From a virus (taxonomy: Duplodnaviria; Caudoviricetes), in the IMG/VR virus record IMGVR_UViG_3300011443_000215, positions 1 to 32,485 of that record: a stretch of 32,485 nucleotides of DNA; one strand, given 5' to 3'. Below the pieces are notes generated by a model. That model ran no database searches, was not told where the DNA came from, and saw only the letters and a program-made list of their open reading frames with translations. A program made the translations under genes and the position numbers. Numbering within the stretch: the first letter of the stretch is position 1; each line of letters begins with the position of its first letter. This document shows positions 2,231 through 28,374 of this stretch, piece after piece.

Positions 2231-2905
2231 ATGGACAAAAGAATTGCCTACATTTTCCCAAGTAGAACAAGACCGGCTAAGTTTTTCCAATGCCTGGAAA
2301 ATATTCAGGATATGAGTTTTTCTGATAACTATTTCGTTTGGGCTAAATTGGATAACGACGATCCAACCAAAGAAGAATACGAAAAAAGATTACACGAATT
2401 TCCAGAGGTAACAGTTAAATGGGGGTTAAGTAATAACAAGGTTCATGCAATCAATCGTGACCTTGAAGATTTGCCACCATGTGACATAATGATAATTCAA
2501 TCTGACGATATTCATTGGACGCAATTCGCATTTGATGATGATATAAGAGAAGCCTTCGTTGACCATTTCCCCGACTTAGATGGCACTATACATTGGCCTG
2601 AATTTCATGCCGGACGATCAACAATTATCGTTTCCATAATGGGAGTGAATATGTATAAGAAGTTGGGGTATATGTATTGCCCATGTTATGAAAGTGTTTA
2701 TAGCGATAATGATTTCACCGAAATGACAAAGGCTATGGGTAAATACAAGTTCATTAATAAGCAAATATTTTTACACAAGCATCCAATTTGGCAAGAATCA
2801 AAAACCGAATGGGATGCCCAATACAAGCATTCAGAACGACCTGAAGTTTATAAAAAAGACAGAGACACCTACCACAAAAGAAAGGCTATTAATTTTGGAA
2901 TATGA
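2231..2905 (+). CDS. GT-A fold glycosyltransferase (GT2-like)
   Basis: IFPSRTRP...LDNDDP...KVHAINR...DIMIIQSDDI (DxD-like)...YESVYSDNDFT...H.HP. Confidence 0.75.
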   Translation: MDKRIAYIFPSRTRPAKFFQCLENIQDMSFSDNYFVWAKLDNDDPTKEEYEKRLHEFPEVTVKWGLSNNKVHAINRDLEDLPPCDIMIIQSDDIHWTQFAFDDDIREAFVDHFPDLDGTIHWPEFHAGRSTIIVSIMGVNMYKKLGYMYCPCYESVYSDNDFTEMTKAMGKYKFINKQIFLHKHPIWQESKTEWDAQYKHSERPEVYKKDRDTYHKRKAINFGI

Positions 2906-3618
2906 GTAAACTTCAATTGCCGTCAGTAACGCTTATCTGTATTGATTGTGTAAATGCTAATAGGGCGGTTAGCGTTTTGGAGCTATGCAAGGATAAGGCC
3001 GATTTTGGGGCGGTGAAACTTTTAACAAGCCTTCCAATAGAGTACCAGCATAAAACAGAAATACCACCATTAAATACATTGGTTGCGTATTCTATTTTTA
3101 TGCTAACAAAAGTTCATGAGTTCATAAATACGGAACACCTGCTCGTGGTGCAAAGGGATGGATTTATATTAAACCCGCAATCTTTTAATCACGAATGGTT
3201 AACATACGACTACATTGCTCCAATATTTGTTCAGTATAATCACGTAGGGTCAGGAGGTTTTTCATTAAGGACAAATAGAATGATGCAAGAAGTTTCGGCA
3301 TCAATGCCGCATTGGGATTGGTCGCAAGAAAAAGCAGATGAAATACAAAGGGTCGCCTCTTATTATGAAGATGGAGTAATTAGTTTTACTAAACGCAAGA
3401 GGCCATTCAAGATAGCCCCGCTTGAGGAAGCCGCTAATTTTGCTCAAGGCGGCAATAGAGACCCTAAGTATTACCGGCCACACCCCTTCGGCTATCATGG
3501 GCTATGGAGTTCAATTAATGTAGAAACAGGATTAGTTCAACCAGTGTGTGAGCATATAGAAGGGAATTGCGAATGTGTTATGGGGTTTAAAAATTATTTA
3601 AAGGGGATGGAAACGTGA
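2902..3618 (+). CDS. DUF5672-family putative glycosyltransferase
   Basis: LLVVQRDGFI...YDYIAP...VGSGGFSLR...EDG...A.NF...PFGYH matches the family pattern (Q.D, YDYIGAP, GNGGFSLR, ED, PFG.H). ATGA overlap with the upstream gene. Confidence 0.75.
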   Translation: MSKLQLPSVTLICIDCVNANRAVSVLELCKDKADFGAVKLLTSLPIEYQHKTEIPPLNTLVAYSIFMLTKVHEFINTEHLLVVQRDGFILNPQSFNHEWLTYDYIAPIFVQYNHVGSGGFSLRTNRMMQEVSASMPHWDWSQEKADEIQRVASYYEDGVISFTKRKRPFKIAPLEEAANFAQGGNRDPKYYRPHPFGYHGLWSSINVETGLVQPVCEHIEGNCECVMGFKNYLKGMET

Positions 3619-3893
3619 AAAGAAGCGAATTTTTTAAATCAGTAGTTGGATTGGTTGGAGTAGCCGCCAGCATGGGGGAGCTTTCAACTATATCATTTAA
3701 AACGCATGAGATATTACCCGTAAGTACAATGGTTGGTGATTTGTTGATGAACTTTAAAAGCGAAGTATTTTATTTTACGGGTAGCCAAATTACAAACATA
3801 AGTACGGGGGAAAGTTTACCGGCCAAAGCAGGTATTGTGAATAACGGCGATTATCAAAGATTTTCAAGTTCAATAGGGGAGCGTAAAAAATGA
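3615..3893 (+). CDS. Hypothetical protein with Tat-signal-like N-terminus
   Basis: GTG start overlaps the upstream stop and its own stop overlaps the next ATG. N-terminus is MKRSEFFKSVVGLVGVAAS. Confidence 0.55.
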   Translation: MKRSEFFKSVVGLVGVAASMGELSTISFKTHEILPVSTMVGDLLMNFKSEVFYFTGSQITNISTGESLPAKAGIVNNGDYQRFSSSIGERKK

Positions 3894-4747
3894 ATAAAGT
3901 AGTTTTACAAAAAAGCGATATTTATGCAACATTAACTACATGGCTTTATTGTCATTTTTGGATGATGTGGAGTGCAGAACAACAAGGAATAGATGCGTAT
4001 ATCCATTGGCCTACTGGAAAATTCTTGCAATCATACGAGGATAGAAATAAGTTTAAAGAGATTCAAAATGCCTATGAATGGTACTTCGTTCAGCCAAAAT
4101 TAAATTCAAATCCAGGAAGTCCCGTTTGGCTTTGGGAAAACTGGAAAGACCCATCGCCTGTTGCATTCATGGCTCAACCACTACAAGTCATAAAAGACTA
4201 CTATAAAAAACACTTGCATTTTAATGATGCCACCAATGCAAGAGGGCGAGCAATACAAGAGAAATATGGCATTGACTTTTCAAAAACAATAGGGATAACG
4301 TGGCGGGGAACTGACGTTTATTTGGACGGTCGGCCACGCATTCCTATTGAAGTTTATTACCCATTCATTGATGAAATTTTAGAAAAACAACCAGACCTAA
4401 GAATAGCTTGTACGGCAGAAGAAGAAACAATCCTTGACCCGCTTTTAATTCGTTACCCTAATGCGTTTAAGATTGATGAGTTTATTTCTTCTCCGTTTGA
4501 ATCAAAGCACAACCCTGAAAGGTTATCAGATGTATCTGGATATGAGAGAGGGCTGCAACCGGCATTAATGGTTTGGTTGTTTTCTAAATGCGCTCATTAC
4601 ATTAAAAATAGAAGTAGTACGGGAGGGGTAGCAAGTTGGTTAAGTGATGGAAGGATAGTTTCGATTGCACACCCTGAAAATTTAGGTTTCCCTGCCAATA
4701 CTAATACAGCAGAGATTGAAGGTAAATTATATCCATTAAACCTATGA
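3890..4747 (+). CDS. GT-B fucosyltransferase-like protein (NodZ/GT23/O-FucT-like)
   Basis: TIGITWRGTD (cf. GVH.R.TD motif I), RIACTAEE (cf. F.ATD/E), LFSKCAHYIKNRSS (cf. LS.CD.lI...S). Confidence 0.7.
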   Translation: MNKVVLQKSDIYATLTTWLYCHFWMMWSAEQQGIDAYIHWPTGKFLQSYEDRNKFKEIQNAYEWYFVQPKLNSNPGSPVWLWENWKDPSPVAFMAQPLQVIKDYYKKHLHFNDATNARGRAIQEKYGIDFSKTIGITWRGTDVYLDGRPRIPIEVYYPFIDEILEKQPDLRIACTAEEETILDPLLIRYPNAFKIDEFISSPFESKHNPERLSDVSGYERGLQPALMVWLFSKCAHYIKNRSSTGGVASWLSDGRIVSIAHPENLGFPANTNTAEIEGKLYPLNL

Positions 4748-5310
4748 TAACAGTAAATACAAGAGCAGAATTTCTTATGGAGTTGGCCAAACTATTGCCG
4801 CCTAAAAGCAATGGTATTGAGTTGGGGGTATTGCATGGTGATTTCTCCCGAATGATTTTAGACATTGTAAAACCAGATTGGCTTGTACTTGTTGACCCAT
4901 ATACTGAAGGTGAAGAAAGATATGGCCCCGACCCTAACGCATGGAAAACGGCTTACTCAACAGAGGCGCAATACAATGCCGTTAAAAAGAGATTCAACAA
5001 CGAAATATTCTTAGGTAAACTTTTTATAGATAGAGGGTATTCATACGAAGCAGTAAACCATTATGTCAATCGTAGCTTCTCATTCGTTTACCATGATGCT
5101 TGCCATCTTTATGAGCATCTAAAAAAAGACTTAAATGATTGGATGCCGAAGTTGAAAGACGAAAATTCCTATATGTGTGGCCATGATTATGTTGATAGTA
5201 ACGGGTTTGGAGTAATACAAGCAGCAGATGAATTTTGCCAGGAACAAGGATTTGAAATGATAATTTTTAACGAAACCGAAGGAGACTTTGCACTAACAAA
5301 AAAACAATGA
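4744..5310 (+). CDS. Class I SAM-dependent methyltransferase (Methyltransf_24-like)
   Basis: GIELGVLHGDFS...LVDPY...FVYHDACHLYE..KKDL..W.PKLK...CGHDY. Confidence 0.85.
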   Translation: MITVNTRAEFLMELAKLLPPKSNGIELGVLHGDFSRMILDIVKPDWLVLVDPYTEGEERYGPDPNAWKTAYSTEAQYNAVKKRFNNEIFLGKLFIDRGYSYEAVNHYVNRSFSFVYHDACHLYEHLKKDLNDWMPKLKDENSYMCGHDYVDSNGFGVIQAADEFCQEQGFEMIIFNETEGDFALTKKQ

Positions 5311-6299
5311 ACCATTGCATCATCACAACTATCAATAAGCCAAGTAAGTCAGTAGAGAAAATCTACGAGTATTTTGGTGATGGCCTTATCGTAATTGGTG
5401 ATAAAAAAACACCGACCGATTGGAGTTATAAAGATGCAAAATACATATCACCCGATAACCAAAGAGAACTTGAATTTGTATGCAGGTATTACATTCCAGA
5501 TAACCATTATTCAAAAAAGAACATAGGCTATCTAATGGCAATGAAGGAACGGGCAACACTTATCTATGACACCGATGATGATAATTGCCCTAATGATAAT
5601 TTCAATTTCAGAACACGAAACGTTCAAGCAAATGAATCATTAGGTGAAGGATGGTATAATGTTTACGACTTAGTTGCAAGCAATTTCATGTGGCCGAGAG
5701 GGTTTTCATTAAAGCATCTAAGAGACTTTCCTTCATGTGGGATGGCGAAGTTTAGAGATAGTTCTATTCAGCAAGGGTTGGCAGATGGTGAGCCGGACGT
5801 TGATGCAATGTGGAGATTGATATTTGGAAGAAAAAATAAGTTTGAAACAAACAAAAGCATATATCTAAATCCTAATACGTGGTGTCCTTTTAATTCTCAA
5901 AGCACATGGTGGTTCCCAAAAGCATACCCATTGATGTATCTTCCTATATACGCAACGTTTCGCATGACTGATATTTACAGAAGTTTCGTTGCACAGCGTT
6001 GCATTTGGGAAATCGGTGAAGGAGTAACCTACCATTCCCCAAGTGAAGTATATCAAGATAGAAACCAACATGACCTATTAGCTGATTTCAAAGATGAAGT
6101 GCATGGGTATTTGCATAGTGGAATCATTGTTGAGATATTGCAGAAATTGAAATTAAAACCAGGAGTTGAAAACATTTGCGATAATTTAATAACGTGCTAC
6201 GTAGCTTTAATTGGTGATGGTATATTGCCGGTAAAAGAAATTGAATGCGTAAAAGCATGGGTAAAAGACTATGAGAACATTACAAAAAATATGGGCTGA
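5307..6299 (+). CDS. STELLO/DUF288-like (GT75-related) glycosyltransferase
   Basis: IITTINKP, VIGDKKTP..W, YSKKNIGYL.A, IYDTDDDN, WPRGF, QQGLADGEPDVDA..RL, PFNSQ.T.W, FRMTDI.RSF.AQR. Confidence 0.85.
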   Translation: MNHCIITTINKPSKSVEKIYEYFGDGLIVIGDKKTPTDWSYKDAKYISPDNQRELEFVCRYYIPDNHYSKKNIGYLMAMKERATLIYDTDDDNCPNDNFNFRTRNVQANESLGEGWYNVYDLVASNFMWPRGFSLKHLRDFPSCGMAKFRDSSIQQGLADGEPDVDAMWRLIFGRKNKFETNKSIYLNPNTWCPFNSQSTWWFPKAYPLMYLPIYATFRMTDIYRSFVAQRCIWEIGEGVTYHSPSEVYQDRNQHDLLADFKDEVHGYLHSGIIVEILQKLKLKPGVENICDNLITCYVALIGDGILPVKEIECVKAWVKDYENITKNMG

Positions 6300-6837
6300 T
6301 TTAGCCAATGCCGGAATGGAAACTGACAAAGGGTCAGTACATAGCTATATTGATGTTTACCAAGAGTTATTCTCTATTCAGAGAGTAGCGGCAAAGAACG
6401 TTCTTGAAATAGGATTATTTCAAGGCCATTCAATGAGAATGTGGGAGCAATATTTCATCTATGCAGATGTTCATGGAATTGATTGTAGTGACCAACCGAT
6501 AGGGGGCTTGGCAGATTTAAGACCAATGATAGCAGAGGGAACGCACAAGATACATATAATGGATGCCACAAGCCAAGAACAAATAGATGATGAATTTGGT
6601 GATATGAAGTTTGATGTAGTCATTGATGATGGCAACCATAACGTTAATAGCCAACTTCAGACTATTGAAATATTCAAGCCACGAATGAATCAAGGCGGCA
6701 TCATAGTGATAGAGGATATTCAAGATATAAATAATTTTTCATGGTCATTTTATGGGTCACATGACGATGTAGAGATAATTGACCTTCGTAAAATAAAAAA
6801 TAGATATGACGATGTTCTTGTAATATTGAAATTCTAA
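6271..6837 (+). CDS. SAM-dependent sugar O-methyltransferase (MycE/TylE-like)
   Basis: TDKGSVHSY...Y...VLEIGLFQG.S..MW..YF....GID...FDVVIDDGNH...GGIIVIEDI. Confidence 0.8.
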   Translation: MRTLQKIWADLANAGMETDKGSVHSYIDVYQELFSIQRVAAKNVLEIGLFQGHSMRMWEQYFIYADVHGIDCSDQPIGGLADLRPMIAEGTHKIHIMDATSQEQIDDEFGDMKFDVVIDDGNHNVNSQLQTIEIFKPRMNQGGIIVIEDIQDINNFSWSFYGSHDDVEIIDLRKIKNRYDDVLVILKF

Positions 6838-6840
6838 CCT

Positions 6841-7401
6841 ATGGATTTATCAATACTCGTACCATACATAAGAAGGCATGAGAGTGCTTTTCTAAAGTTG
6901 AAGTTTAAGCTATCAGCCCAAATACTACCGTATGCCGGAAGGATTGAACTACTAACGGATAACCACGAATATGATTTGGTGGGTACAAAAAGAAACAGAT
7001 TACTTGAAAGAGCAACCGGAAAATATCTTTGCTTCTTTGATGCAGATGATACACCTTCGCATGACTATATTGACCAAGTGATGAAAGGCATTGAATCAGG
7101 TTGTGATTGCACAAGTTTACGTGGGGAGATTTCAATAGATGGGAAGTTTGATGGGGTGTTTGAGCATTCGATAAAGTACAAAGAATGGAGAACAACAAAG
7201 AATGAAGTGAAGTATGAGAGGTATCCAAATCATCTCAACCCTATCAAGTCAGAGATAGCCAAGTTGTTTAAATTTCCAGACATTAATCACGGGGAAGATG
7301 CTGATTGGTCAACACAAATTTTTCAGGCGGGTTCATTGAAAACAGAACATTACATAGACGATATTATTTACTATTACGATTACGAGAGCGTTAAAAAATG
7401 A
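6841..7401 (+). CDS. GT2-family glycosyltransferase
   Basis: LSILVP...VGTKRNRLLERATGKYLCFFDADD...GEDADW. Confidence 0.85.
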   Translation: MDLSILVPYIRRHESAFLKLKFKLSAQILPYAGRIELLTDNHEYDLVGTKRNRLLERATGKYLCFFDADDTPSHDYIDQVMKGIESGCDCTSLRGEISIDGKFDGVFEHSIKYKEWRTTKNEVKYERYPNHLNPIKSEIAKLFKFPDINHGEDADWSTQIFQAGSLKTEHYIDDIIYYYDYESVKK

Positions 7402-8183
7402 CAAATACAGACACGGTAATATATTCAAGCTGGTGCTTATCGGATAACTTCGGGGATAAACTTACGCCATACCTTATTGAAAAAATAAGTGGTAAGAAAT
7501 GCGTTTGGTCGCCACCCGAAAGTGACATTGAAAAGTTCTTGGTAACGGGAAGTATATTGAATTGGGAGATGAAAAATGCAATCTCTTGGGGTTGTGGCCT
7601 TGCAAGTAAAGACGATAGGGTTGGTGTTGAAAAGGTGGTAATGGTACGGGGCCAAATATCAAAGTATATGGCAATTTTGGGCGGCATTGAAAATGAAATT
7701 GCCGTTGGCGACCCCGCATTATTATTGCCAAGATATTACACACCACCCGCAGCAAAGAAATATCAATTAGGGGTATTCACTCACTACATAGATACCGATG
7801 TTATTTCATACAATTTACTAAGCCAATTCCCCGATGATGTTGTATTGATAAATCCATTAGGGGATATTGAAGAAGTGATTGATTTGGTATGTAGTTGCCA
7901 CAGAGTAATATCAAATAGCTTGCATGGGTTGATAGTTGCAGATGCGTATGGCATACCGTCAAGGTGGGTTAAGTTTTCAGATAGAATACTTGGAGATGGA
8001 ACAAAATACATGGACTACTATTCATCCATTGGCTATGATATTGGAACGAAACCCGTTGATTTAAGAAATAACATTGACATAGAATCTCTATTAGCCGTTG
8101 AGTGTGATTTGAAATATCTGAAAATAGATTTAGATGCTATGATGAAGTGCTGCCCCTTTTTACCCGAAATAATAAACCAATAA
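7398..8183 (+). CDS. Polysaccharide pyruvyltransferase (ExoV-like)
   Basis: NFGD.L, GSIL, WG.G, VRG, GDPALLL, SNSLHGLIVADAYGIP, KY.DYY. Confidence 0.85.
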   Translation: MTNTDTVIYSSWCLSDNFGDKLTPYLIEKISGKKCVWSPPESDIEKFLVTGSILNWEMKNAISWGCGLASKDDRVGVEKVVMVRGQISKYMAILGGIENEIAVGDPALLLPRYYTPPAAKKYQLGVFTHYIDTDVISYNLLSQFPDDVVLINPLGDIEEVIDLVCSCHRVISNSLHGLIVADAYGIPSRWVKFSDRILGDGTKYMDYYSSIGYDIGTKPVDLRNNIDIESLLAVECDLKYLKIDLDAMMKCCPFLPEIINQ

Positions 8184-8184
8184 T

Positions 8185-8772
8185 ATGTTTTCACAGAACG
8201 CAGAAGAAATAATAATACTCCAATATTTTGCTGACAAGCCAATAGGAAAGTTCCTTGATATAGGCGCATTCGATGTTGAAAAATTTTCAAACACTCGTGC
8301 TTTATATAATAAAGGTTGGGGAGGTGTATTCGTAGAGCCAAGCCCAAAGCAATTCAATAACATATATGAGCATTACAAGAACGACCCCAAGATAGTAACG
8401 TTAAACGTTGCTATCGGCACAAGCTCAGAGCCGCTTGAATTTTATTTATCTGAAGATGCCGTTTCAACTTCCGATGTTCCGCACATGACCAAGTGGGCAA
8501 ATGCCGGAGTGAAATTTGAAAAGACAACAGTACCGCAAATCCATGTAGCTGACTTTATGAAAGAGTATTGCGTGGATATTGATTTCATCAGCTTAGATAC
8601 AGAAGCAACCAACATGAAAATATTCAGAGCAATACCAGATTTTGTCTTTGAGCAAATAAGTTGCTTTTGCATTGAGCATGACGGGCTATCAGATGAAGTT
8701 GAAGATAGGCTTGCAAGTTTTGCGTTCTATCCAATGTATTTTAATGGTGAGAATATAATTTTAGGTAAATAA
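8185..8772 (+). CDS. FkbM-family methyltransferase
   Basis: SQNAEE...FLDIGAFD...SNT..L...GW.GV.VEP...N.AI...IDFISLDTEA...CIEH. Confidence 0.85.
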   Translation: MFSQNAEEIIILQYFADKPIGKFLDIGAFDVEKFSNTRALYNKGWGGVFVEPSPKQFNNIYEHYKNDPKIVTLNVAIGTSSEPLEFYLSEDAVSTSDVPHMTKWANAGVKFEKTTVPQIHVADFMKEYCVDIDFISLDTEATNMKIFRAIPDFVFEQISCFCIEHDGLSDEVEDRLASFAFYPMYFNGENIILGK

Positions 8773-8778
8773 TTAGTT

Positions 8779-8970
8779 ATGAATAGTATTATATCAGAAA
8801 CTTTAAAAAAAGATTCGGATGAAGCGGTTCAATTAGGTAACGAATTTCCTGGGTACATGGGGGTGCCGCCAAAATCTTTTAGTAAGCAAGAATTAATAAT
8901 GCTTCTAAACGTTCTATTCAATGAGTTTATGGAAACAAGAAGAAGGGAATTAAGTTTAATGAGACTATGA
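8779..8970 (+). CDS. Hypothetical protein
   Basis: 63 aa ORF within the operon; its stop overlaps the next ATG (ATGA). Confidence 0.55.
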   Translation: MNSIISETLKKDSDEAVQLGNEFPGYMGVPPKSFSKQELIMLLNVLFNEFMETRRRELSLMRL

Positions 8971-9581
8971 TTATACCACATATCATATCCGACCCAAAAC
9001 TAACCGTAAGAAAGGAAGTTCTGATTAAAGAGTTGGCAAGGCAGCGGATTGAAACATATAAACTATGGCCTTCAGTCCACTTGCCACACTCTCCAAGACG
9101 TACAAGTATTTCAAAAGCTCATAAGCAAATAGTAGAGTGGGCAGCAAATGAAGGACTTGAAGAAGTGGCAATATTTGAAGATGACATTTGGTTTCCTTCG
9201 CCGGATGGTTGGGAATATTTCGTTTCAAAAAAGCCAAAGTTCTATGACCTTTACCTATGTGGAATTACAAGAGGGGAATTAGTAAATGGCAAAGTAAGGC
9301 GTTATACCGGCCAATTTGGTTACTTCATCCATGAGAAATACTACGATACATTTCTAAGAACAGATGAAAAATTAGACATTGACGGTGCGCAATCGGGGCG
9401 TGGGGATTTCCATGTTTGCTATCCATTTGCAGCTTTTTGTTATCCTGGTTTCTCAAAAAATCAGAACGGAGTGGTAGATTATTCCCACCTTTTAATAGGC
9501 AGAGAGATACATGGATTTGGGCTAATGAATGATAAAGCCGATGCTAAAAGGTTTTCAGATGCAGCCAAAGCCCTTATGTGA
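8967..9581 (+). CDS. GT25-like glycosyltransferase
   Basis: SISKAHKQIVE...VAIFEDD...DLYLCG...YFI matches the GT25/Lex2B-type SH...IFEDD layout. Confidence 0.65.
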   Translation: MIIPHIISDPKLTVRKEVLIKELARQRIETYKLWPSVHLPHSPRRTSISKAHKQIVEWAANEGLEEVAIFEDDIWFPSPDGWEYFVSKKPKFYDLYLCGITRGELVNGKVRRYTGQFGYFIHEKYYDTFLRTDEKLDIDGAQSGRGDFHVCYPFAAFCYPGFSKNQNGVVDYSHLLIGREIHGFGLMNDKADAKRFSDAAKALM

Positions 9582-9915
9582 GTTCTTCCCTTTTCTTTTT
9601 GGACAGCACTTCTATCTTACTTACCCTTAAATATTGGACAGCTACGGGGTCGCCACCGTTCTTTGGAACATGGACTTTTACATCGGGAGTGCCTTTGGCA
9701 TATACTTGGACACCTTTTTTGAGCATGGCGAGAAGTTCTTCACTATCGGAAAAGTAGGCACAATCCACCCAATGCTTCTTTTCTTCTTTTGTGCCATTTT
9801 CACGATTACGCCATTGTTCAGAGTGGCAAACGGCGAAGTTTATCAACTTTCTCCCATTGGCTACATTCATTACCGCATCAGCACCTAAGTTGCCGATAAT
9901 AAAAAACTCTATCAT
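9574..9915 (-). CDS. ssb: Single-stranded DNA-binding protein (bacterial SSB OB-fold)
   Basis: IIGNLGADA...INFAV...EQW......W..C..F......LKKG.QVY..G. Confidence 0.9.
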   Translation of the reverse strand: MIEFFIIGNLGADAVMNVANGRKLINFAVCHSEQWRNRENGTKEEKKHWVDCAYFSDSEELLAMLKKGVQVYAKGTPDVKVHVPKNGGDPVAVQYLRVSKIEVLSKKKREELT

Positions 9916-9927
9916 AGGGGGTTGGAT

Positions 9928-10197
9928 TTAAAGTTTGGCTACCAAAACATCTGACCTACAAAGCCATATATCCGGTTCAACTTCAACGCCGCCGTCTTCG
10001 GCAAGGCATATATCACCTATATCAATTCTGGTGATTTCCCAATCTTCTTTGTAGCAAAGAACATCTGAATCGGGGGAAATTCCTACTACTTCTACTTTGT
10101 TGAATGGATTTTTTACTGTGTCAAGGATGAGGCCGGAAGCTGATACTTTTTCTTCGTGGATTAGCTTAATAAGGACTTTATTACCTAAAGGCTGCAT
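9928..10197 (-). CDS. GroES/Cpn10-like co-chaperonin
   Basis: MQPLGNKVLIK..EEKVSASGLIL (PL.DRV and mobile-loop-like GIIL), then VVG and IGD. Confidence 0.75.
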   Translation of the reverse strand: MQPLGNKVLIKLIHEEKVSASGLILDTVKNPFNKVEVVGISPDSDVLCYKEDWEITRIDIGDICLAEDGGVEVEPDIWLCRSDVLVAKL

Positions 10198-10213
10198 AAG
10201 TATTGGAGTTTGG

Positions 10214-10260
10214 CAAATGTAAAAAAATAATTTGAAATAGTAGAAAAAATATTAATTTCG
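10214..10260. promoter_or_regulatory. Second divergent Bacteroidota-type promoter region
   Basis: Leftward -7 element TACATTTG (10221-10214, no clear -33). Rightward TTTG (10231-10234), 18 nt spacer, TAATTTCG (10253-10260). Confidence 0.55.
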
Positions 10261-10275
10261 TATATCTCACGCCCT

Positions 10276-11187
10276 ATGTCAACACCACGATGTATTCAAA
10301 ATCATATCCTTGTTGAACTGCCAAAGGCTTTTCAAGACGAACTTGTAACGAGCAACGGACTTAAATTCTATCAAGATACTACATTCAGACCGGAATGGAA
10401 TGTCACGCTTCAAGGTAAGGTTATTTCAGTCCCTACAAAACTCACATTTGGGGATGGTCAAATTCACTCCTACGACCCCGATAGAATACGCATTAACCCA
10501 ATCATAGATGTTGGTGACGACATAGTATTCAACTACTTAGTGGTAATGAAACGTGCGCAAACGGATAATAGGGCAGAGGTCTTTGAGAAAGAGCCAACAG
10601 TTGACCCATTCGTTACCACATGGTCAAATTACAACGACCAAAAGCTAATAAGAGTTTACCTTAAAAACGATAGGTGGAAGATAGGTTTATACGATACCAA
10701 GTCAAGAACATGGGTTGATAAATTGGAAGGTGGCGAAAGAGATATTGAGAGTTTCATGGGTAGGTATATGCCAACCGAAAACGTAGGTTTCAATTATCAC
10801 AACCTTTTGCCACACGAAGGGAAAGACTATTGGATGGTTGATTATGCCAATGCAGTAGCAATTAAAAAAGAAGATGGAACATTTCAGATGGTTGGTGATT
10901 ACGTCCTTGTAGAGCCAATTAGAGAGCCATTCAGAGGCACACATCAAGGGGTGATAGAAGTATATGAAATTAAGCAAGACACCGATTATAGAGCCATAGG
11001 GCGAGTTGTAAGCATAGGTGAACCGCTATTAGGCGACACCAAACTAAGTATTGAGCCAAACGATGTTATTTGTTCAGATATACGTTATGTAGAGAAGTAC
11101 GAAATTGACGGCCACGACTATTGGGTTATCCGTCAAAAACACATTTACGGAAAATCTGTAACGAATGAACATCCAAGAAGTACATGA
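10276..11187 (+). CDS. Protein with two GroES-like domains
   Basis: N-terminal HILVEL...SNGL...GKVISVP...VGDDIVF; C-terminal GDYVLVEP...GRVVSIG...IDGHDYWVIRQKHIYG (cf. GroES IDGEEYLIM.E.DILG). Confidence 0.65.
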   Translation: MSTPRCIQNHILVELPKAFQDELVTSNGLKFYQDTTFRPEWNVTLQGKVISVPTKLTFGDGQIHSYDPDRIRINPIIDVGDDIVFNYLVVMKRAQTDNRAEVFEKEPTVDPFVTTWSNYNDQKLIRVYLKNDRWKIGLYDTKSRTWVDKLEGGERDIESFMGRYMPTENVGFNYHNLLPHEGKDYWMVDYANAVAIKKEDGTFQMVGDYVLVEPIREPFRGTHQGVIEVYEIKQDTDYRAIGRVVSIGEPLLGDTKLSIEPNDVICSDIRYVEKYEIDGHDYWVIRQKHIYGKSVTNEHPRST

Positions 11188-11836
11188 TTTCATTGATTTA
11201 ATTACGGCGCAAGAAAGAGGCGGTTTCAATACACCCTCCGAAAAAGACCAAGCCTTAGACAGAGCAAGTTTAACCTTGTTTGAGTTCTATCGTGCAAGAT
11301 ATTCCACAGCTATTGAATCTAAAGAAGCACTTGCTCCATTCAGAGGAAGATACGACTACACAACCGATGGTAGCGGGGAAATAACCATTTCAACCGGACT
11401 TGACTTCGTTCACTTATTGGCTATGGACGTAATGGTAAACGACCCCGATACTCCATCGGGGTTCAATGATGATAGGCGTTACCCCGTTTCATTCCCAAAT
11501 GAGGATGAACTTGCTGACAGATTAAATTCCCAAATAAAACAACCAACAAGAACAGCACCAATAGCGGATATAATTGGCGTTGGTTGGTATAATTTATACC
11601 CGCAAGTCGTTCATGCCGGAACAATTTACTACTTATCAAGACCCGATACACCCGTATTTGGATATACGCAATCTGGAAGAACAATCACGTATGACCCATC
11701 AACAAGTACGCAATTACAATGGACAGAGCCGTATTTGAACAATGTAATTTTCCTTGCATTGAGGTTCTTAGGAATCAATCTTAACAACGAATATTTAAAC
11801 CAAGTAATGACCCAATATGTAGGGGAGACAAAATAA
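11165..11836 (+). CDS. Virion tail ring/adaptor protein (crAss-like/Flavobacteriia podophage type)
   Basis: N-terminus (I.A.E..GF.TP.E.D.A..RA...LF) and Y...P..P..GY resemble ring proteins of these phages; first gene of the tail module. Confidence 0.55.
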   Translation: MNIQEVHDFIDLITAQERGGFNTPSEKDQALDRASLTLFEFYRARYSTAIESKEALAPFRGRYDYTTDGSGEITISTGLDFVHLLAMDVMVNDPDTPSGFNDDRRYPVSFPNEDELADRLNSQIKQPTRTAPIADIIGVGWYNLYPQVVHAGTIYYLSRPDTPVFGYTQSGRTITYDPSTSTQLQWTEPYLNNVIFLALRFLGINLNNEYLNQVMTQYVGETK

Positions 11837-11845
11837 ATTTAAAAC

Positions 11846-12694
11846 ATGGCAACAGATATATCATTAGTAAATAACGTTGTAAAAATAACCATAGATAGCG
11901 GTAGGCCAAGACAGTATTCACTTGCCACAGCCACCTATGCCTTCAACGAAAATGACGTTCTAAATTTAACAATAGACGGGCAAAACTATTCAGTAGCACT
12001 TGCTGACTTGCGTATCAATGGTGCAGGTTCCGCACCCGTTTCCACAGCAGCAGCACTCACATCATTGAGTTCAGTTTTCCCTGCATGGAATCAAACCACA
12101 TATACGCTAAATGAAATATTAGCCGAAAGCAACGATGCCGGAGCTAATACTATCGACAACTTAGCCGACCCAACAACCGATCAACAAGCAGCCACAAAAA
12201 AATACGTGGACGACAATGCTGGCGGTGGCGAAGGTGGGGCTTTACTATCAGCAACCGTTGAATTGACTAATGCTCAAATAATCGCTTTGCCTAGTACGGG
12301 GGTTGAGTTAGTTGCGGCACAAGGGAGTGGTAAGATAATAAATGTAGTATCGTGCTATTGTGTTACAAATTTTGCTTCCGTTTATACGGGGACAACCGAT
12401 GCTAGTTTAAACCTTATGATGGGATTAGCTTATGTTAATTCAACTTTCCCTGATTGGGCAGGGGCATTGGAAACAACCACTCGTAAGGGGTTAAAGTTGC
12501 CAGAGAACAGTTATAGCGCAGGTGGCGGGTCTTTTGCAGGCGAGACTATTGGCCTCATGAGTACAAACCTAACAAATTTAGAAGATGAAGCCCTTGTGTT
12601 AAAAGATGATTATAGCGGCTTATCTGACTACGGCGGCGGCAATGCAGCAAATACTTTAAAAGTAACAGTTTTCTATACAATAGTTGATTTATAA
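11846..12694 (+). CDS. Tail fibre/virion appendage protein
   Basis: Rich in T/S/A/G. Contains TIDNLADPTTDQQAATKKYVD, a neck motif common to fibres and trimeric adhesins, followed by a Gly linker and a beta-rich C-terminal domain. Confidence 0.6.
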   Translation: MATDISLVNNVVKITIDSGRPRQYSLATATYAFNENDVLNLTIDGQNYSVALADLRINGAGSAPVSTAAALTSLSSVFPAWNQTTYTLNEILAESNDAGANTIDNLADPTTDQQAATKKYVDDNAGGGEGGALLSATVELTNAQIIALPSTGVELVAAQGSGKIINVVSCYCVTNFASVYTGTTDASLNLMMGLAYVNSTFPDWAGALETTTRKGLKLPENSYSAGGGSFAGETIGLMSTNLTNLEDEALVLKDDYSGLSDYGGGNAANTLKVTVFYTIVDL

Positions 12695-13069
12695 AATGGC
12701 AAAAGGGAAAAAAAATAAAAGTAACAATATGGCAAGCGTAATTTACAAAGCTAATCTAACTCAAGAAGATACTAATGTTCCTAATGCAATAATAGGGGTT
12801 GATACTATAACAGGTATTGTTTGGACAAGGGCGTCGGCTGGAATTTATTATGGAACAAAAACAGGGGCATTCCCAGAGGGTAAAACCCATTTATTTATAG
12901 GCAGTTCCATAAGCCCCATTCAACACGTATCTCTACAGTATAACGACGAAAATATTGTTGTTATAGAAACGAAAGTTTTTTCTGGTGGTGTTTGGACACC
13001 TACAGATTACATTCTTTACCTCACATCAGTAGAAATAGAAGTCTATCTATAGTAGTTGATTTATAAAAT
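12681..13069 (+). repeat. 17 bp direct repeat TAGTTGATTTATAAAAT flanking one gene
   Basis: Exact copies at 12681-12697 and 13053-13069. Confidence 0.85.
12696..13052 (+). CDS. Small beta-rich putative virion protein
   Basis: YKANLTQ...P...W.R...G.Y...VEIEVY. The ATG at 12696 is preferred over the TTG at 12684. Confidence 0.5.
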   Translation: MAKGKKNKSNNMASVIYKANLTQEDTNVPNAIIGVDTITGIVWTRASAGIYYGTKTGAFPEGKTHLFIGSSISPIQHVSLQYNDENIVVIETKVFSGGVWTPTDYILYLTSVEIEVYL

Positions 13070-13717
13070 ATGGCAACACTTTATTCAATATCAGAGCAAA
13101 TCAGATCGCTTTTACAAGGAGGCGACCCCCCACAAGCACCAAAGTTTGAAATGGAGGAAGTAAAGAGGGCTGCTATCCAAGTTATAAATGGGTTGATAAA
13201 AACACAGCACCTTGCCGAAGAAATGGCGGGCGGCGAAACCATTCCCGATGGGTCGGTATTGGCAGAATACGATAGTGTTGCAGTTGAAAAATACAAGAAC
13301 ACGGCAAGGGCAACATTGCCCGCAATGCCGGTTAAGCTACCAAGAGGGATGGGTATTTGGCACGTAAGCAAGACAGATGATATTATCAATGGGTTTATCC
13401 CCTTCCAACCAGGAGAGTTGCAAATGATAGGTGAGGAAGCAATGATTAGCGATATAATGGGGCAGATCGGTTATATGCCAGTTGGCAAATACATAATCTT
13501 CAACAAAGATATTACAACCAACCAAGATGAATATAAAATAGAGGAAGTGTATATGCAACTTGTGGTAAAAGATTTGACTTTATATGGAGATTTTGAAACG
13601 CTACCTATCCCAAGTTCTATGGAAATGGACGTTATCGCTGGAACATTTCAGATATTGACGGGGCAACTACCCGCTAATAAAAAAGTTGACGTAATAAACA
13701 AACAACCTGAAGAATGA
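13070..13717 (+). CDS. Putative tail ring/structural protein
   Basis: 215 aa acidic ORF in the tail module, with a C-terminal LPIPSSME motif and ATGA coupling to the next gene. Confidence 0.5.
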   Translation: MATLYSISEQIRSLLQGGDPPQAPKFEMEEVKRAAIQVINGLIKTQHLAEEMAGGETIPDGSVLAEYDSVAVEKYKNTARATLPAMPVKLPRGMGIWHVSKTDDIINGFIPFQPGELQMIGEEAMISDIMGQIGYMPVGKYIIFNKDITTNQDEYKIEEVYMQLVVKDLTLYGDFETLPIPSSMEMDVIAGTFQILTGQLPANKKVDVINKQPEE

Positions 13718-14469
13718 GATTAACAACTTTAAATGGGGTGGCAAGGAGTTCGCTTCTACTTTGTAGGAAGCCTATTCATTACTATTACCAGTTTCTAAAA
13801 TATTCCGCAGATTGTTTGCAAGAATTAATCTACGACACACTTCAAATAACCAATACAGTAAGGCTTGATTTGAATGAGTTCTTTGAAGCAGAGATACCGG
13901 CAGACTATGTTGATTTCGTTTCAATAGGGGTTCAAGCGGGGCAATTCACAAGACCATTAGTGCATAAAGATACGCTTGCAAGGCTTCCAAATTTAGATAC
14001 AGAAACCGGCGACCAAATTCAATACCCAAATAGCACAGAAGAAACAGACGATTGGACTGACTTATTTCAATGGTGGGGTATAAATATAAACTCACATGGC
14101 GAAAATACGGGAGCATATTACGGGTTAGGTGCGGGGAGCGAGCCGGATACTTATAATATAATCCCCGAACAAAACATTATAAAGTTCAACAGAAATATCG
14201 GGTTCAATCAAGTCGTTCTTAGATATATCAGCGATGGTACTTATGCAAATGCAGCCACTCAAATTCCAATATACGCTAAAAAATGCGTTGAAACATACAA
14301 CGATTGGCAATATAAAGAGTTTAGCAAATCATTCGGTGCTTATGATGCAGAAAGAGCAAAAGCGTTATTCATAAGAGAGCATGAGAAACTAAGAGCAAGG
14401 AAGAACGAGATGACCCCTGAAAACTTACACAGAATAATCAATAGAAACAGAAAGGCAAGTTTGAAGTAA
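13714..14469 (+). CDS. Putative tail ring protein
   Basis: IPADYVDFV..G and VVLRYISDG motifs recall crAss-like ring proteins; lies just upstream of the muzzle-like gene. Confidence 0.6.
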   Translation: MRLTTLNGVARSSLLLCRKPIHYYYQFLKYSADCLQELIYDTLQITNTVRLDLNEFFEAEIPADYVDFVSIGVQAGQFTRPLVHKDTLARLPNLDTETGDQIQYPNSTEETDDWTDLFQWWGININSHGENTGAYYGLGAGSEPDTYNIIPEQNIIKFNRNIGFNQVVLRYISDGTYANAATQIPIYAKKCVETYNDWQYKEFSKSFGAYDAERAKALFIREHEKLRARKNEMTPENLHRIINRNRKASLK

Positions 14470-15053
14470 TGCAGCAAATAACAGAAATATGGAAGCCGGT
14501 CGAAGGATTTGAAAATTTCTATGAGATTTCAAATTTAGGTCGGGTTAAAAAACTTTGGGAAGGCCGCAGCCACAATATCCCCAAAGGAATTATGAACGTA
14601 AAGATAAATAATAGCGGGTATAGGTATGCCTTTTTATGCAATAACGAAGGGAAGCAGCAATCAATACTCGTTCATAGGCTAGTGGCTTATGCGTTTATAC
14701 CAAATACAGAAAATAAGCCGCAGGTAAATCATATCAACGGGGTTAAATTAGACAATAGACTTGATAATCTTGAGTGGGCTACAAATTCTGAAAATCAGCT
14801 TCATGCATACAAGATAGGGCTTCAGTTTAAAGAAACTGGCGAAGGCAACCCATTATTTGGGAGAAGGGTACGTCGTGAGGGAAATTGGATGCTATCTCTG
14901 TCAAAAAGAGTTATTCATAAAGAAACTGGGAAGATTTATGAAAGTATAGCTGAAGCAGCTATACAGACGGGCATTAAATATTATACAATCGGCAGAAGCC
15001 TAAGAGGGGCTATAAAAAAAGACCTTGGATTTGCGTATGCAGCAGATAATTAA
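14469..15053 (+). CDS. NUMOD4-HNH homing endonuclease with C-terminal NUMOD1-like DNA-binding segment
   Basis: EIWKPVEGFENFYEISNLGRVK (NUMOD4); VHRLVAYAFIPN..NKPQVNHINGVKLDNRLDNLEW (HNH); TGKIYESIAEAA. Confidence 0.92.
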   Translation: MQQITEIWKPVEGFENFYEISNLGRVKKLWEGRSHNIPKGIMNVKINNSGYRYAFLCNNEGKQQSILVHRLVAYAFIPNTENKPQVNHINGVKLDNRLDNLEWATNSENQLHAYKIGLQFKETGEGNPLFGRRVRREGNWMLSLSKRVIHKETGKIYESIAEAAIQTGIKYYTIGRSLRGAIKKDLGFAYAADN

Positions 15054-18000
15054 AAAGTTGCTAAATGGTGGGCTTGACAGCGATTCGGCAGAGTTTCTTG
15101 TGCCGAAAGAGTGTTTCATTTCAGGTCAGAATGTTCGCATTGGCGGCACTACTGATTTGGGTGGAGTTGGGTATATTGAATCTATTCTTGAGAATGCTGA
15201 AAAGTTTCACGTATTAAATTCAGGTGGAGAAAACATAACCATTGGCTTTGCTTCAGATGCAGAAGAAGGATGGATAGTGAAATTTAATTGGAGCAGTACA
15301 GGCAATCACGGGATATTTTTATTCGACATAATCAATGAAACGTGGTATGACTTACTACTTGAAGCCGATGTAACGGGGGGGTTAAACTTTGAAAAGAACC
15401 AATTAATCCATAGTGCAAGAATAGAAAATGGGAATGTATATTGGTGCAATGCAGAACAAAACCAACCAAGAAGATTCAACATACGTGCAGCAGCAAATCT
15501 ATATGCACCAGGGACTTTCGATGATGTTGATGCTTACACAACGCCAATATCACAAGATGTAATTTATTGGATACGCAGACAACCGGGATTGCCGCCAATA
15601 ATGACCAAGATGATAGCAAGCCCCGTTATCAACAACTTCATTAAAGATGAAGGGTTTTGGGCTTCATTCAGATATATTTATAGAGACTATGAAATATCTA
15701 CGCTATCGGAACTTTCTGAACTTGCTAACTATAATGCCCCCGATGATGAGTTTAATGCACTTAATATAGAGATTCCAGTTGGCGAATATATCGAGCAAGA
15801 CGTATTGCAGGTTGACTTAGTAATTAAGTATGCAAGTACGGGAAAATCTTTCGTAATTCGTTCATGGAATAAAAATGTTGCGTTAGATTTAGCAGCTATC
15901 AATAATCATAATAGCGGGGCAGAACTTTTATATTTCGATTACTACAATGATTTCATAGGCACAGCACTTGATGATGCTTATTCAGTAAAACCTTATGATA
16001 GCTTACCAATCTACGCACAAACAATAGAGATAGCAAGGAACAGGTCATTCATGCTTAACTATACTCTTGGCTATGATACTCCGGTAGCACCAACTTCATT
16101 AGATGCTGTTTTTGTAACGCAAACAGAAGGAGAAACAGTAACGGGAACTTGGTGGGAGATGCAATGGAGGCCAAGCCCTTTTGGTAGCCCAGATACTTAT
16201 TACGTTTTATATCTTGAAAATATCGGGGCGTATAGTGGTTACTATGGGTATCTACCATTTCCTGGCCCTGTTGGAACGGTATCTACGCCACCAATATTAC
16301 CAATCATTGCAGATTACCCAACGGAATTAGCACTTGCGGGTTATACAGCTAATGACATTCTTCTTTATTTTTCATTAGACCTTTCGGGGTATGTAAACTT
16401 TATCCCAACATCATCAACGGCAAGCATTACTAATTCCCCCGAAACGGTAACGTTGGTTGGTGCGAATGTTTTCAAAAGTGATGCGCCATATCAAATAGCA
16501 CTTCAATTCAGGGACTTTGCCGGAAGAAAATGCGGTGCTATAACTAATTCTGGAATGATATTTACAACTCCCGATAGGGCGTATGATACCATTGCATTTA
16601 CTACTGCATTGACTTGGACGTTAAGTAATTCAAATAAACTTGCAGAGATACCAGATTGGGCTTTCTACTATGATATTTTAATAAGTAAATGTTTGCGTAC
16701 AAGATTCTTTTTGGAAGCAAGGGCTAAGAATATAACATACGTAGTAAAAGATATTGATGGAGAATATGAGTTCAATACAAATGCCTATGCCGATGACCTT
16801 AATGGCGTAGCCATTGATATTACCCTATTGAATGGGTATGGGATGGGGTACGTTTGGGCAGAAGGGGATGTAATAAAAATTTACAAAGATGGCGATGCAA
16901 CCGTTTATACCTTATCATTACTTGGGCAAGAAGGTAATTGGGTAATTGCGGAACTAAAAGATTTAGGCACTATTGGCAATACAGCATCACCATATTTAAC
17001 GGGGTTGTTTGAAATCTATACACCATTCAGACGTTCATCAAATGAGCCGTATTATGGGGTTGCGCAATCGTATAAAATTACAGACCCCGCAACAGACGAC
17101 AGAGAGTATTCAGTATTAACGGGTAGCATTGGGGGTGATGTTACATTGCTAAGTCGTGGCGATGGTAGCGCAAGTTACTTTACTGAAAATATGTCTCCCA
17201 ATGATAAATACCCTTACCAATGGAATACAGATTCAGGGAGGCCAAACTTCATTGATACAATAGGTCAAGAAACAAAAACCAATGACATAGCATATAGCGA
17301 TAGGTTGATTGCCGGAACAAGAACAAATGGTTTATCTACATTTGAAGCATTGAATACAAAGGACGTTCCGATTGAATGTGGCGATGGAATGAAGTTGCAA
17401 GTAGCCGATAAGATAACAGAGCAAGGAAATATTATGCTTGCGATATGTGCAAATGAAACTGTTTCTTTGTACCTTAGTGAAGCGCAATTATTGGGTTCAA
17501 CCGGCAATGCGTTTTTAGCGCAAGCGTCAGATGTAATTGGAACGGTCAATGTGCTGAAAGGCTCTTACGGGACACTAAATCCCGAAAGCGTTGTCTTATC
17601 AAGTGGACGGGTATTCTTCTACTCCCTTATTCGTGGATGCTTTGTTTCTTATTCCAACAATGGGTTATTCCCGATTAGTGATTATGGGTTGAAAAGAGTT
17701 TCGCATTTATTTTCACAAGCGTATGCTGGATTAAGCCAAGAAGAAATTGAAGAAATGGGAAGTAGGCCATTCGTATTTGGTGGAGTTGACCCTTACCACA
17801 ATGAAGTTTATTGGTCAATACCAACGACTACATTAACCCCACCAAAGGGTTACTTGGAAGATTATGTTTCACCCGAACCGCTTGTTATTTACCCCTATGA
17901 CATTTACGATGGGTTGGGTAAAGTTTTGGTGTTTAAAATGAATGAAGATAGATGGGCAACACCTCATTCATACGAAACAGAATACTTTGTTGACATAAGA

Positions 18001-18459: not shown

Positions 18460-18469
18460 ATCCTTACCT

Positions 18470-28062: not shown

Positions 28063-28373
28063 TGGACTATAAAGAAAAATGTGAAGAATACGAAGCGATA
28101 TTAGGCATCGGCGGAAAGGATATAGCAAAGAGAGCATTCCTTTCATTGTGCAGAGTAGTTAATCAGCAGGTAGCAAGATTAGATAAATTCGTTTTAGATA
28201 AGGAGATAGGCGTAAATCCAAAAGACGACAAGATATATGATAGGACTATGGCTATTGCAGATGGTATGCCAAAGATGATTAAAGATATTAACGCCTTAAA
28301 ATTGGAACTAAAAATAACCAAGAAAGAAGAAGAAGAAACATTCATTGATGGTATTGCAGAAAAAAGAAATTAA
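28062..28373 (+). CDS. Putative terminase small subunit
   Basis: 103 aa helical protein ending FIDGIAEKRN. It is the last non-endonuclease gene before terL; the assignment is mainly positional. Confidence 0.4.
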   Translation: MDYKEKCEEYEAILGIGGKDIAKRAFLSLCRVVNQQVARLDKFVLDKEIGVNPKDDKIYDRTMAIADGMPKMIKDINALKLELKITKKEEEETFIDGIAEKRN

Positions 28374-28374
28374 T

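What the first reader, a model, noticed from the sequence alone, without database searches (positions are those of the whole stretch)
2231..9581. Ten-enzyme phage operon for building, methylating and pyruvylating a glycan
Seen: 12 same-strand ORFs, mostly overlapping or nearly abutting. Six are glycosyltransferase-like from five families (GT2 x2, DUF5672, NodZ-like, STELLO, GT25-like), three are SAM methyltransferases and one is a pyruvyltransferase. There is no flippase, polymerase, bactoprenol transferase, nucleotide-sugar synthase or obviously membrane-spanning protein, so it does not look like a captured capsule locus or a gtrABC serotype converter. Established: some mycobacteriophages and giant viruses glycosylate their virions, and T-even phages glycosylate DNA. 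Inference: this is a soluble cytoplasmic pathway using host NDP-sugars, SAM and PEP to put a complex capped glycan on virion proteins (or on DNA or a host lipid). It lies just upstream of the chaperonin and tail module.
Basis: partly seen in the sequence, partly recalled or inferred. Interest (0 to 1): 0.85.

Follow-up and report, generated by a model that had tools for sequence, protein, structure and literature searches.

The report
Modular phage glycan cassette with mutase
An uncultured phage carries twelve tightly packed genes, ten predicted to build, methylate and pyruvylate a sugar chain (one a predicted ring-contracting sugar mutase), and unrelated phages share and reshuffle these genes beside their particle genes, so it likely sugar-coats its own particle, though no sugar or acceptor has been measured.

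Summary
The 12 ORFs at 2231-9581 are real, intact and lack membrane segments. Ten are sugar enzymes:
- two GT2-type
- DUF5672
- a NodZ/FUT8-fold fucosyltransferase
- a GT25-like enzyme
- three methyltransferases (one of sugar-O-methyltransferase type)
- a pyruvyltransferase
- the 'STELLO' ORF, better read as a GT75 NDP-pyranose mutase: it matches MtdL (E 4e-36) and keeps 9 of 11 mapped active-site residues.

The window joins two phage modules. A six-gene core recurs in 15-16 of 16 distinct loci of unrelated phages; its NodZ-like gene gave no full-length hit in 185,579 bacterial/archaeal genomes. The GT25-like gene sits before the portal gene in most of 19 capsid-defined relatives, alone or with variable sugar genes.

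Three ORFs have homologs in actinophage GT clusters: Che8 gp108, and phiAsp2 pas33/34 beside a homolog of the enzyme reported essential for Che8 capsid glycosylation. TET and thymidylate synthase each occur in only 1 of 13 carrier records.

Best reading: cytoplasmic glycosylation of virion proteins (about 60%). Rivals are host-surface glycans, DNA, or a small glycoside. The acceptor is not shown, and no sequon was found in the window. New variant of a known kind.

The parts
2231..2905 (+). A: GT-A fold, GT2-like glycosyltransferase (SDD motif 91-93)
   Evidence: PHROG 14945; model and Foldseek; homolog of Mimi gp177 and of the phiAsp2 Pas34 N-domain; in 15 of 16 core-cassette loci
2902..3618 (+). 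B: DUF5672, putative glycosyltransferase (fold not tested here)
   Evidence: Pfam E 5e-18; invariant Q84-D86, E156-D157; in 16 of 16 loci
3615..3893 (+). c: 92-aa ORF, no family, no homolog in the related loci
3890..4747 (+). D: NodZ/FUT8-fold (GT23-like) predicted GDP-L-fucose transferase; WRGTD, TAEE and RSST motifs
   Evidence: 481 homologs
4744..5310 (+). E: Methyltransf_24 SAM methyltransferase; accessory, travels with F
   Evidence: homologous domain in phiAsp2 Pas34; in 8 of 16 loci, 7 of them with F
5307..6299 (+). F: GT75/STELLO-family protein, predicted NDP-pyranose/furanose mutase (MtdL-like)
   Evidence: E 3.8e-36 to MtdL chains 7xpr/7yua; residues checked
6271..6837 (+). G: sugar O-methyltransferase type
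   Evidence: PDB 8ia9 'demethylmacrocin O-methyltransferase' E 1e-9 and 3ssm E 6e-8; in 16 of 16 loci
6841..7401 (+). H: GT2, homolog of the Che8 gp108 N-domain, LittleE gp15 and phiAsp2 Pas33
   Evidence: in 15 of 16 loci
7398..8183 (+). I: polysaccharide pyruvyltransferase; accessory, in none of 76 related D loci
   Evidence: Pfam E 7e-13; phage homologs in Lak phages and Carin-5
8185..8772 (+). J: FkbM-family methyltransferase
   Evidence: PF05050; TIGR01444 above cut-off; in 16 of 16 loci
8779..8970 (+). k: 63-aa ORF, no family
8967..9581 (+). L: GT25-like glycosyltransferase (SKAH..EDD), anchor gene of this phage clade's cassettes; candidate priming enzyme
9574..10197 (-). SSB and GroES-like genes, convergent with the cassette
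10276..32484 (+). GroES-like gene, virion structural genes, terminase and portal (cut at contig end) of a phage distantly related to Elemovirus and phi38:1; candidate acceptor proteins

Best explanation
The cassette encodes ten predicted cytoplasmic sugar enzymes that likely build a branched, fucose-containing, O-methylated and pyruvylated glycan stepwise, most likely on Ser/Thr residues of the phage's own particle proteins. Shown: the genes, their families or folds, conserved motifs, the phage-wide distribution and the position by virion genes. Inferred steps: (1) a priming transferase puts the first sugar on a virion protein; in this clade the candidate is GT25-like L, by analogy with Che8 gp110 and Corndog gp38, while core-cassette phages without L would need A, H or B. 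(2) H, A and B extend the chain. (3) D adds L-fucose or a related sugar from a GDP-L-sugar. (4) F converts a GDP-L-pyranose into a furanose donor. (5) G, J and E O-methylate sugars with SAM, and I caps one with pyruvate from PEP. Swapping accessory genes would give each phage its own glycan. The benefit (shielding from proteases, grazers or decoy receptors, or altered adsorption) is inference.
For: H is homologous to the Che8 gp108 GT domain (profile E 5.5e-46), and gp108 is itself a GT2-methyltransferase fusion. In LittleE the H homolog follows the capsid gene. In phiAsp2, H (E 2e-40), A (5e-17) and E (1e-10) homologs lie three to four genes after the head gene, next to a Che8 gp110 homolog. 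Corndog has MT-GT-GT-gp38 just upstream of the major head gene. gp110 and gp38 are reported essential for capsid glycosylation (passage in PMC12363180), and gp110 is GT25, the family suggested for L. Of 36 distinct L clusters, 22 have a terminase, portal or ring-type virion gene within three ORFs, 2 more only the GroES-like gene, and 30 have such a gene in the locus. Of 19 capsid-defined clusters, 16 carry L, mostly directly before the portal; 3 have L alone between terminase and portal. One large freshwater cluster has fibre proteins with 39-173 Gly-X-Y triplets that are 78-96% Ser/Thr at X/Y. The core B, G, J (16/16) and A, H (15/16) recurs with D beside four terminase families. Relatives add GDP-mannose dehydratase, epimerases, GT11, GT47, NeuB/CMP-synthetase/GT29, matching GDP-L-sugar donors. 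The Mimivirus fibril cluster likewise pairs GTs with a pyruvyl- and a methyltransferase (passages in PMC9614988).
Against: No glycan, acceptor or activity was measured. L does not detectably match gp110 with a 102-sequence profile and only weakly with 187 sequences (12.1 bits; hhalign probability 17.5%), so orthology is not shown. Two records rated complete that carry the core (G007, G011) gave no L match (no positive control in that call). No tripeptide sequon is enriched in the window's virion proteins (DTG 0, SGE 1 in 2703 aa). Ser/Thr Gly-X-Y tracts occur in only 1 of 19 capsid clusters, and the window ends before the capsid and fibre genes. The capsid query was built from L-bearing loci, so 16 of 19 is biased upward. 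In G011 the cassette is inverted against the flanking virion genes, and the region between modules is also where mobile genes insert (HNH/GIY-YIG genes lie inside many cassettes). F differs from MtdL at D87 (Y68) and H287 (Q250), and plant STELLO proteins of the same superfamily do not need the mutase arginine (PMC4906169).
Confidence: 0.6

Rival explanations
1. The soluble enzymes remodel a host glycan on the cytoplasmic side of the membrane (O-antigen or capsule repeat, or the lipid-linked precursor of host protein O-glycans), changing the cell surface to exclude competing phages or grazers.
For: Soluble GTs normally extend lipid-linked repeats (established knowledge), so the lack of membrane segments does not exclude this. 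GT2, GT11, GT25, GT47, pyruvyl- and FkbM enzymes are typical surface-glycan enzymes. Cyanophage GT clusters are read this way in print (passages in PMC12801897), and B has homologs there. The cassette is inverted against virion genes in G011.
Against: D gave no full-length relative in 185,579 prokaryote genomes (a pattern-limited scan). One core is shared at 45-70% identity by phages with four terminase families, whereas host repeats are strain-specific. The minimal form is a single GT25-like gene wedged between terminase and portal. The closest characterised context of H is a virion-glycosylation cluster.
Confidence: 0.2
2. The enzymes hypermodify phage DNA with a sugar chain on a hydroxymethyl-pyrimidine.
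For: 2 of 62 L homologs hit the TET-associated GT family weakly (E 1e-3). G011 has a TET gene beside an FkbM gene. Phage GT-A enzymes do glycosylate 5hmC (passages in bioRxiv 10.1101/2023.12.21.572611). The window is a fragment.
Against: TET occurs in 1 of 13 and ThyS in 1 of 13 carrier records. 2 of the 3 records at least 90% complete have neither. The G011 TET lies about 22 kb from the cassette. Neighbours are packaging and virion genes.
Confidence: 0.07
3. The cassette makes a free small glycoside or oligosaccharide (a signal or inhibitor).
For: The best solved relatives of F and G come from antibiotic sugar pathways. D resembles Nod-factor NodZ.
Against: No aglycone, acyltransferase or exporter gene was recognised among the neighbours scanned. 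Position in the virion module is unexplained by this reading.
Confidence: 0.06
4. It is a captured or decaying host polysaccharide locus with no phage function.
For: I has no counterpart in 76 related loci and may be a recent gain.
Against: All frames are intact, motifs are invariant across 23-55 homologs, GC matches the contig, and the core recurs in unrelated phages but D was not found in bacterial genomes.
Confidence: 0.02

Closest known systems
Actinobacteriophage virion glycosylation (Che8 gp108-110, Corndog gp35-38, Myrna; Freeman et al. 2023, seen only as cited in PMC11256854, PMC12363180, PMC12619734)
   Same: H is a gp108-domain homolog; GT2 plus Methyltransf_24 plus GT25-type composition; soluble enzymes; location in or by the head module; phiAsp2 links A, H and E homologs to a gp110 homolog.
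   Different: Ten enzymes instead of about 3-4. A fucosyltransferase fold, DUF5672, GT75, FkbM and pyruvyltransferase have no counterpart among the Che8, Corndog, LittleE, Mimi or phiAsp2 proteins tested (the pyruvyltransferase was compared by blastp with Che8 only). L is at most distantly related to gp110. The host is likely Bacteroidota. The acceptor is not shown.
Mimivirus/Megavirus fibril glycogene clusters (L143 pyruvyltransferase, R132 methyltransferase; passages in PMC9614988)
   Same: Clade-specific clusters of GTs plus pyruvyl- and methyltransferase that decorate the particle; A's closest predicted viral structures include giant-virus GTs.
   Different: A bacteriophage; no full nucleotide-sugar pathway in the window; homology to L143 or R132 was not tested.
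GT75 NDP-pyranose mutases MtdL and Hyg20 (PMC9937993)
   Same: F keeps equivalents of D109-D110-D111, R159, D195, S228, Q229, R257 and D260.
   Different: D87 is Tyr and the Mn ligand H287 is Gln; activity and donor are untested; phage context, not antibiotic biosynthesis.
T4-like cyanophage 'LPS' gene clusters (P-SSM2, S-SCSM2R, S-H68)
   Same: Many GTs (GT2, GT11, GT25) and epimerases; B and F have homologs in cyanophages.
   Different: Those lie in 175-214 kb myovirus genomes and are read as host-surface genes without test in the passages seen. This compact core is shared by phages of roughly 40-70 kb and sits by packaging genes.
TET/5mYOX-associated DNA glycosylation clusters (bioRxiv 10.1101/2023.12.21.572611)
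   Same: Phage GT-A enzymes in operons.
   Different: No TET, ThyS or C5-MT in the window's cassette; TET and ThyS are absent from most carrier records.

Membership tests
Che8-type virion glycosylation system | Phage-encoded soluble GT homologous to the Che8 cluster | tested here: met
   H vs gp108 N-domain E 5.5e-46; no membrane segments
Che8-type virion glycosylation system | Ortholog of the essential gp110/gp38 enzyme | tested here: inconclusive
   Both GT25-like; direct profile match only 12.1 bits, hhalign probability 17.5%; none
Che8-type virion glycosylation system | Glycan covalently bound to capsid or tail proteins | not testable with these tools
   Needs virions; no cultured phage carries L or D homologs
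GT23-like fucosyltransferase (NodZ/FUT8) | NodZ/FUT8-type fold with the GDP-fucose motifs | tested here: met
   Foldseek top hits NodZ and FUT8; W138-R139-G140, D142, E177-E178, R241, S243-T244 invariant; reading these as the three fucosyltransferase motifs is recalled
GT23-like fucosyltransferase (NodZ/FUT8) | Alpha-1,6-fucosyl transfer to GlcNAc | not testable with these tools
   12-15% identity to NodZ/FUT8 does not fix linkage or acceptor
GT75 NDP-pyranose mutase | DDD motif, nucleophile Arg and substrate residues of MtdL | tested here: met
   D90-D92, R131, D164, S197, Q198, R219, D222 invariant in 24 homologs, mapped by hand on the alignment
GT75 NDP-pyranose mutase | Mn-ligand His287 and sugar-contact Asp87 | tested here: not met
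   Q250 and Y68 at these positions; works like a GT75 mutase, membership as an active mutase not claimed
GT75 NDP-pyranose mutase | Pyranose-furanose interconversion in vitro | not testable with these tools
   needs an assay
Wzx/Wzy capsule or O-antigen locus; gtrABC converter | Flippase, polymerase, bactoprenol transferase or membrane GT | tested here: not met
   No such Pfam/NCBIfam hit; maximum hydropathy 1.55
DNA hypermodification cluster | Linked TET/5mYOX or ThyS-like hydroxymethylase | tested here: not met
   None in the cassette; 1 of 13 records each; the rest of the window's own genome is missing

The most novel reading that the evidence does not exclude
A broad guild of environmental Bacteroidota phages wears a genetically programmed, swappable glycocalyx. 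A GT25-type enzyme primes virion proteins. Interchangeable modules then add fucose, furanose sugars made by a phage GT75 mutase, O-methyl, pyruvate or nonulosonic-acid caps, giving phages glycan 'serotypes' as varied as bacterial O-antigens.
Probability: 0.35. Interest if true: 0.82.

Novelty: new variant of a known kind. Interest (0 to 1): 0.62.

Why it matters
Virion glycosylation of tailed phages is reported for a few actinophages with about three enzymes. If this cassette acts on the particle, it extends the trait to phages of Gram-negative hosts. It would also bring chemistry (fucose, furanose, pyruvate, several methyls) like that on giant-virus fibrils and bacterial surfaces, in habitats without antibodies, which reopens the question of what the coat is for. 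The series from one gene (GT25-like alone between terminase and portal) to ten or more genes gives a direct test order. A phage GT75 mutase and a small soluble NodZ-fold enzyme are also easy biochemical targets.

Tried and rejected
- Single-sequence locus search with F in viral contigs: 18 pattern hits, none confirmed.
- PDB sequence searches with the profiles of D, A, B and L, and with I and E: nothing significant.
- No cultured phage has L or D homologs. Elemovirus, the nearest cultured relative by terminase, shows no annotated glycosyltransferase in the 32 kb read.
- Cluster look-up of 10 homologs gave no organism names.
- Promoter and terminator scan at chance level: 38 vs 41.7 and 7 vs 9.1 expected. 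The recalled Bacteroidota TAnnTTTG element occurs 15 times in the first 12.5 kb, about chance by my rough estimate; not used.
- Sequon search: no S/T/N tripeptide stands out in the window's virion proteins (best P about 1e-3, uncorrected); DTG and SGE are not enriched.
- Sequencing runs: no RNA holder listed.
- The exhaustive profile search with D was still queued at the end; no result.
- PMC13252515 passages concern glycan binding, not virion glycosylation.
- The recalled NodZ/NoeI (FkbM) 2-O-methylfucose parallel was not confirmed by the listing; it stays a recalled lead.
- Only D was scanned against bacterial genomes; the other nine enzymes were not.


Full report
Setting. The window is a whole 32,485-base virus record, cut inside the portal gene. 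Terminase and portal match 87 and 77 cultured-phage records; the rows shown are at 22-29% identity. The named hosts are Flavobacterium, Cellulophaga, Tenacibaculum and Maribacter, so a Bacteroidota host is inferred. The two best holders among sequencing runs are freshwater-sediment metagenomes; one may be the source.

Observation. Twelve + strand ORFs fill 2231-9581 with overlaps or gaps of at most 6 nt. GC is 0.36-0.39, like the rest of the contig. Pfam names B (DUF5672), E and G (Methyltransf_24), F (STELLO, partial), H (GT2), I (pyruvyltransferase) and J (FkbM). A, D and L have no Pfam hit. A folds as GT-A. D folds like NodZ and FUT8. L is GT25-like by language-model neighbours and weak family hits. 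Motifs are conserved in 23-55 homologs per family, and no ORF has a membrane-length hydrophobic stretch. SSB and a GroES-like gene follow on the opposite strand.

A correction. The profile of 24 F homologs matches MtdL, a GT75 enzyme, at E 3.8e-36. MtdL interconverts GDP-L-galactose and GDP-L-fucose between pyranose and furanose forms (passages of PMC9937993). Counting along the alignment by hand, F keeps D109-111, R159, D195, S228, Q229, R257 and D260, but has Tyr for D87 and Gln for H287. F is thus likely a donor-remodelling mutase, with doubt, because plant STELLO proteins share the domain and do not need that arginine (passages of PMC4906169). G matches macrolide-sugar O-methyltransferase structures. 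A search for phage, 'pyranose mutase' and GT75 together found 0 papers.

Module 1, the core. D has 481 homologs among 726 candidates. Locus searches gave 15 viral and 62 metagenome loci, one being the window itself. Among 185,579 prokaryote genomes there was a single 28-residue fragment; that scan rests on exact 9-residue patterns, so distant bacterial relatives are not excluded, and the atlas lists bacterial-majority look-alike clusters. Of 76 D loci, 23 have more than 3.5 kb on both sides, and they form 16 clusters at 90%. B, G and J occur in 16, A and H in 15, E and F in 8 each (7 together), L in 1, and I in none of 76. The E-F link gives Fisher P 0.01, but the loci are related. Flanks include contractile-tail genes, an HK97-type head, a 238-kb phage and four terminase families counting the window's, so the core moves between unrelated phages. 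Add-ons vary: NeuB, CMP-synthetase and GT29 in L001, an epimerase and extra GTs in L024, a Stealth-like gene in L011.

Module 2, the GT25-like anchor. L has 73 viral loci in 36 clusters at 80%. 22 have terminase, portal or a ring-type gene within three ORFs, and 2 more have only the GroES-like gene. Three layouts appear: L alone between terminase and portal; terminase-L'-GT2-GT11-MT-epimerase-FkbM-GT47-L-portal; and A-H-two unassigned genes-MT-L before the GroES-like and ring genes, the window's own site. A capsid-based search returned 61 loci. The 59 new ones (2 already held were left out) form 19 clusters, 16 with L. One of the other three ends at the portal, and the two most distant lack L there. 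The query came from L-bearing loci, so this is biased. The window thus reads as the third layout with its middle replaced by B-D-E-F-G and with I and J added (inference from gene order). By eye, several longest-contig lengths recur in the D, L and GroES-like homolog lists, hinting that the hybrid layout is not unique; I did not test this.

Link to a known system. H's matches among cultured phages are 63 actinophage records, including Che8 gp108 (profile E 5.5e-46). gp108 carries a Methyltransf_24/TylF domain, and gp110 is GT25. PMC12363180 (passages) states that gp110 and Corndog gp38 are essential for capsid glycosylation. PMC11256854 (whole text) and PMC12619734 (passages) also report glycans on capsid or tail-tube proteins. 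I could not read Freeman et al. 2023 itself or its supplements, which may list further carriers. Corndog, LittleE and phiAsp2 place these genes by the head genes, and phiAsp2 holds homologs of H, A and E beside a gp110 homolog. Against this, L and gp110 align only weakly, and two complete core carriers gave no L match, so no single priming enzyme is established.

Acceptor. Not shown. The window's virion proteins have no enriched sequon, and its capsid and downstream fibre genes are missing. One large freshwater cluster with the second layout encodes fibres with Gly-Thr-Ser/Gly-Ser-Ser tracts of 39-173 triplets. The cassette-free Elemovirus stretch has only short ordinary collagen repeats. But such tracts appear in just 1 of 19 clusters.

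Rivals. DNA: TET in 1 of 13 and ThyS in 1 of 13 carrier records; G007 and G010, rated 100% and 96% complete, have neither. G007 repeats several genes and may be a merged assembly. Host surface: not excluded, and it is the printed reading of cyanophage clusters (passages of PMC12801897). A small glycoside is possible, given the antibiotic-pathway relatives of F and G. Mimivirus clusters with pyruvyl- and methyltransferases that decorate fibrils (passages of PMC9614988) show that this enzyme mix can serve a particle.

Novelty. Ten literature searches (listings seen) gave no description of this cassette or of a phage GT75; the library lacks most subscription papers. Earlier notes of this scan describe two look-alike cassettes and about 1,900 findings with these words, so phage glyco-cassettes are a recurring theme; those notes are not independent evidence. 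Added here are the GT75 mutase reading, the two-module anatomy with a one-gene minimal form, and the phiAsp2 bridge. Verdict: real; a glycan pathway about 0.9; virion acceptor about 0.6; new variant of a known kind; interest 0.62.

Noticed in passing
L001:2416-7345 and 12643-13533: A core-cassette phage (record rated 24% complete) adds NeuB, a CMP-sugar cytidylyltransferase, a GT29 sialyltransferase-like and an MptE/Maf-like gene: a possible phage nonulosonic-acid capping module.
   Followed up: no
L122-L170 group, e.g. L132:18147-20516, L170:18700-20529: Putative fibre proteins after the capsid gene carry long Gly-Thr-Ser/Gly-Ser-Ser tracts (39-173 triplets, 78-96% Ser/Thr at X/Y) in phages with a GT25-GT2-GT11-GT47 cassette; the best acceptor candidate seen.
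   Followed up: partly
L254, L260, L263 (L102, L151): A single GT25-like gene sits between terminase and portal: a minimal system for testing.
   Followed up: partly
G011:41205-42796 (L090:3205-4796, - strand): A TET/JBP dioxygenase next to an FkbM methyltransferase, about 22 kb from the glycan cassette; possibly a separate DNA-modification pair.
   Followed up: no
L024:2182-3117; L108; L162:8512-9480: GDP-fucose-synthase-like epimerases (name by my reading of the sequence, recalled) and a GDP-mannose 4,6-dehydratase inside related cassettes.
   Followed up: partly
window 9928-11187: Two divergent GroES-like genes, one of 89 aa and one of 303 aa with a long insert; the long form has 74 homologs.
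   Followed up: partly
window 14469-15053, 28345-28995; many related cassettes: HNH and GIY-YIG endonuclease genes inserted between virion genes and inside the glyco cassettes.
   Followed up: no
window 947-1489 and 1516-1995: Two paralogous unknown ORFs with a shared C-terminal stretch just upstream of the cassette.
   Followed up: no
L024:15303-18824: A large protein with ART-PolyVal (ADP-ribosyltransferase) domains after the cassette.
   Followed up: no
L123:12975-13469: A ferritin-like gene between portal and scaffold in the abundant freshwater cluster.
   Followed up: no
G007 (L084-L087): The record repeats muramidase, DUF6291 and terminase genes; it may be two related phages merged or a long redundancy.
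   Followed up: no
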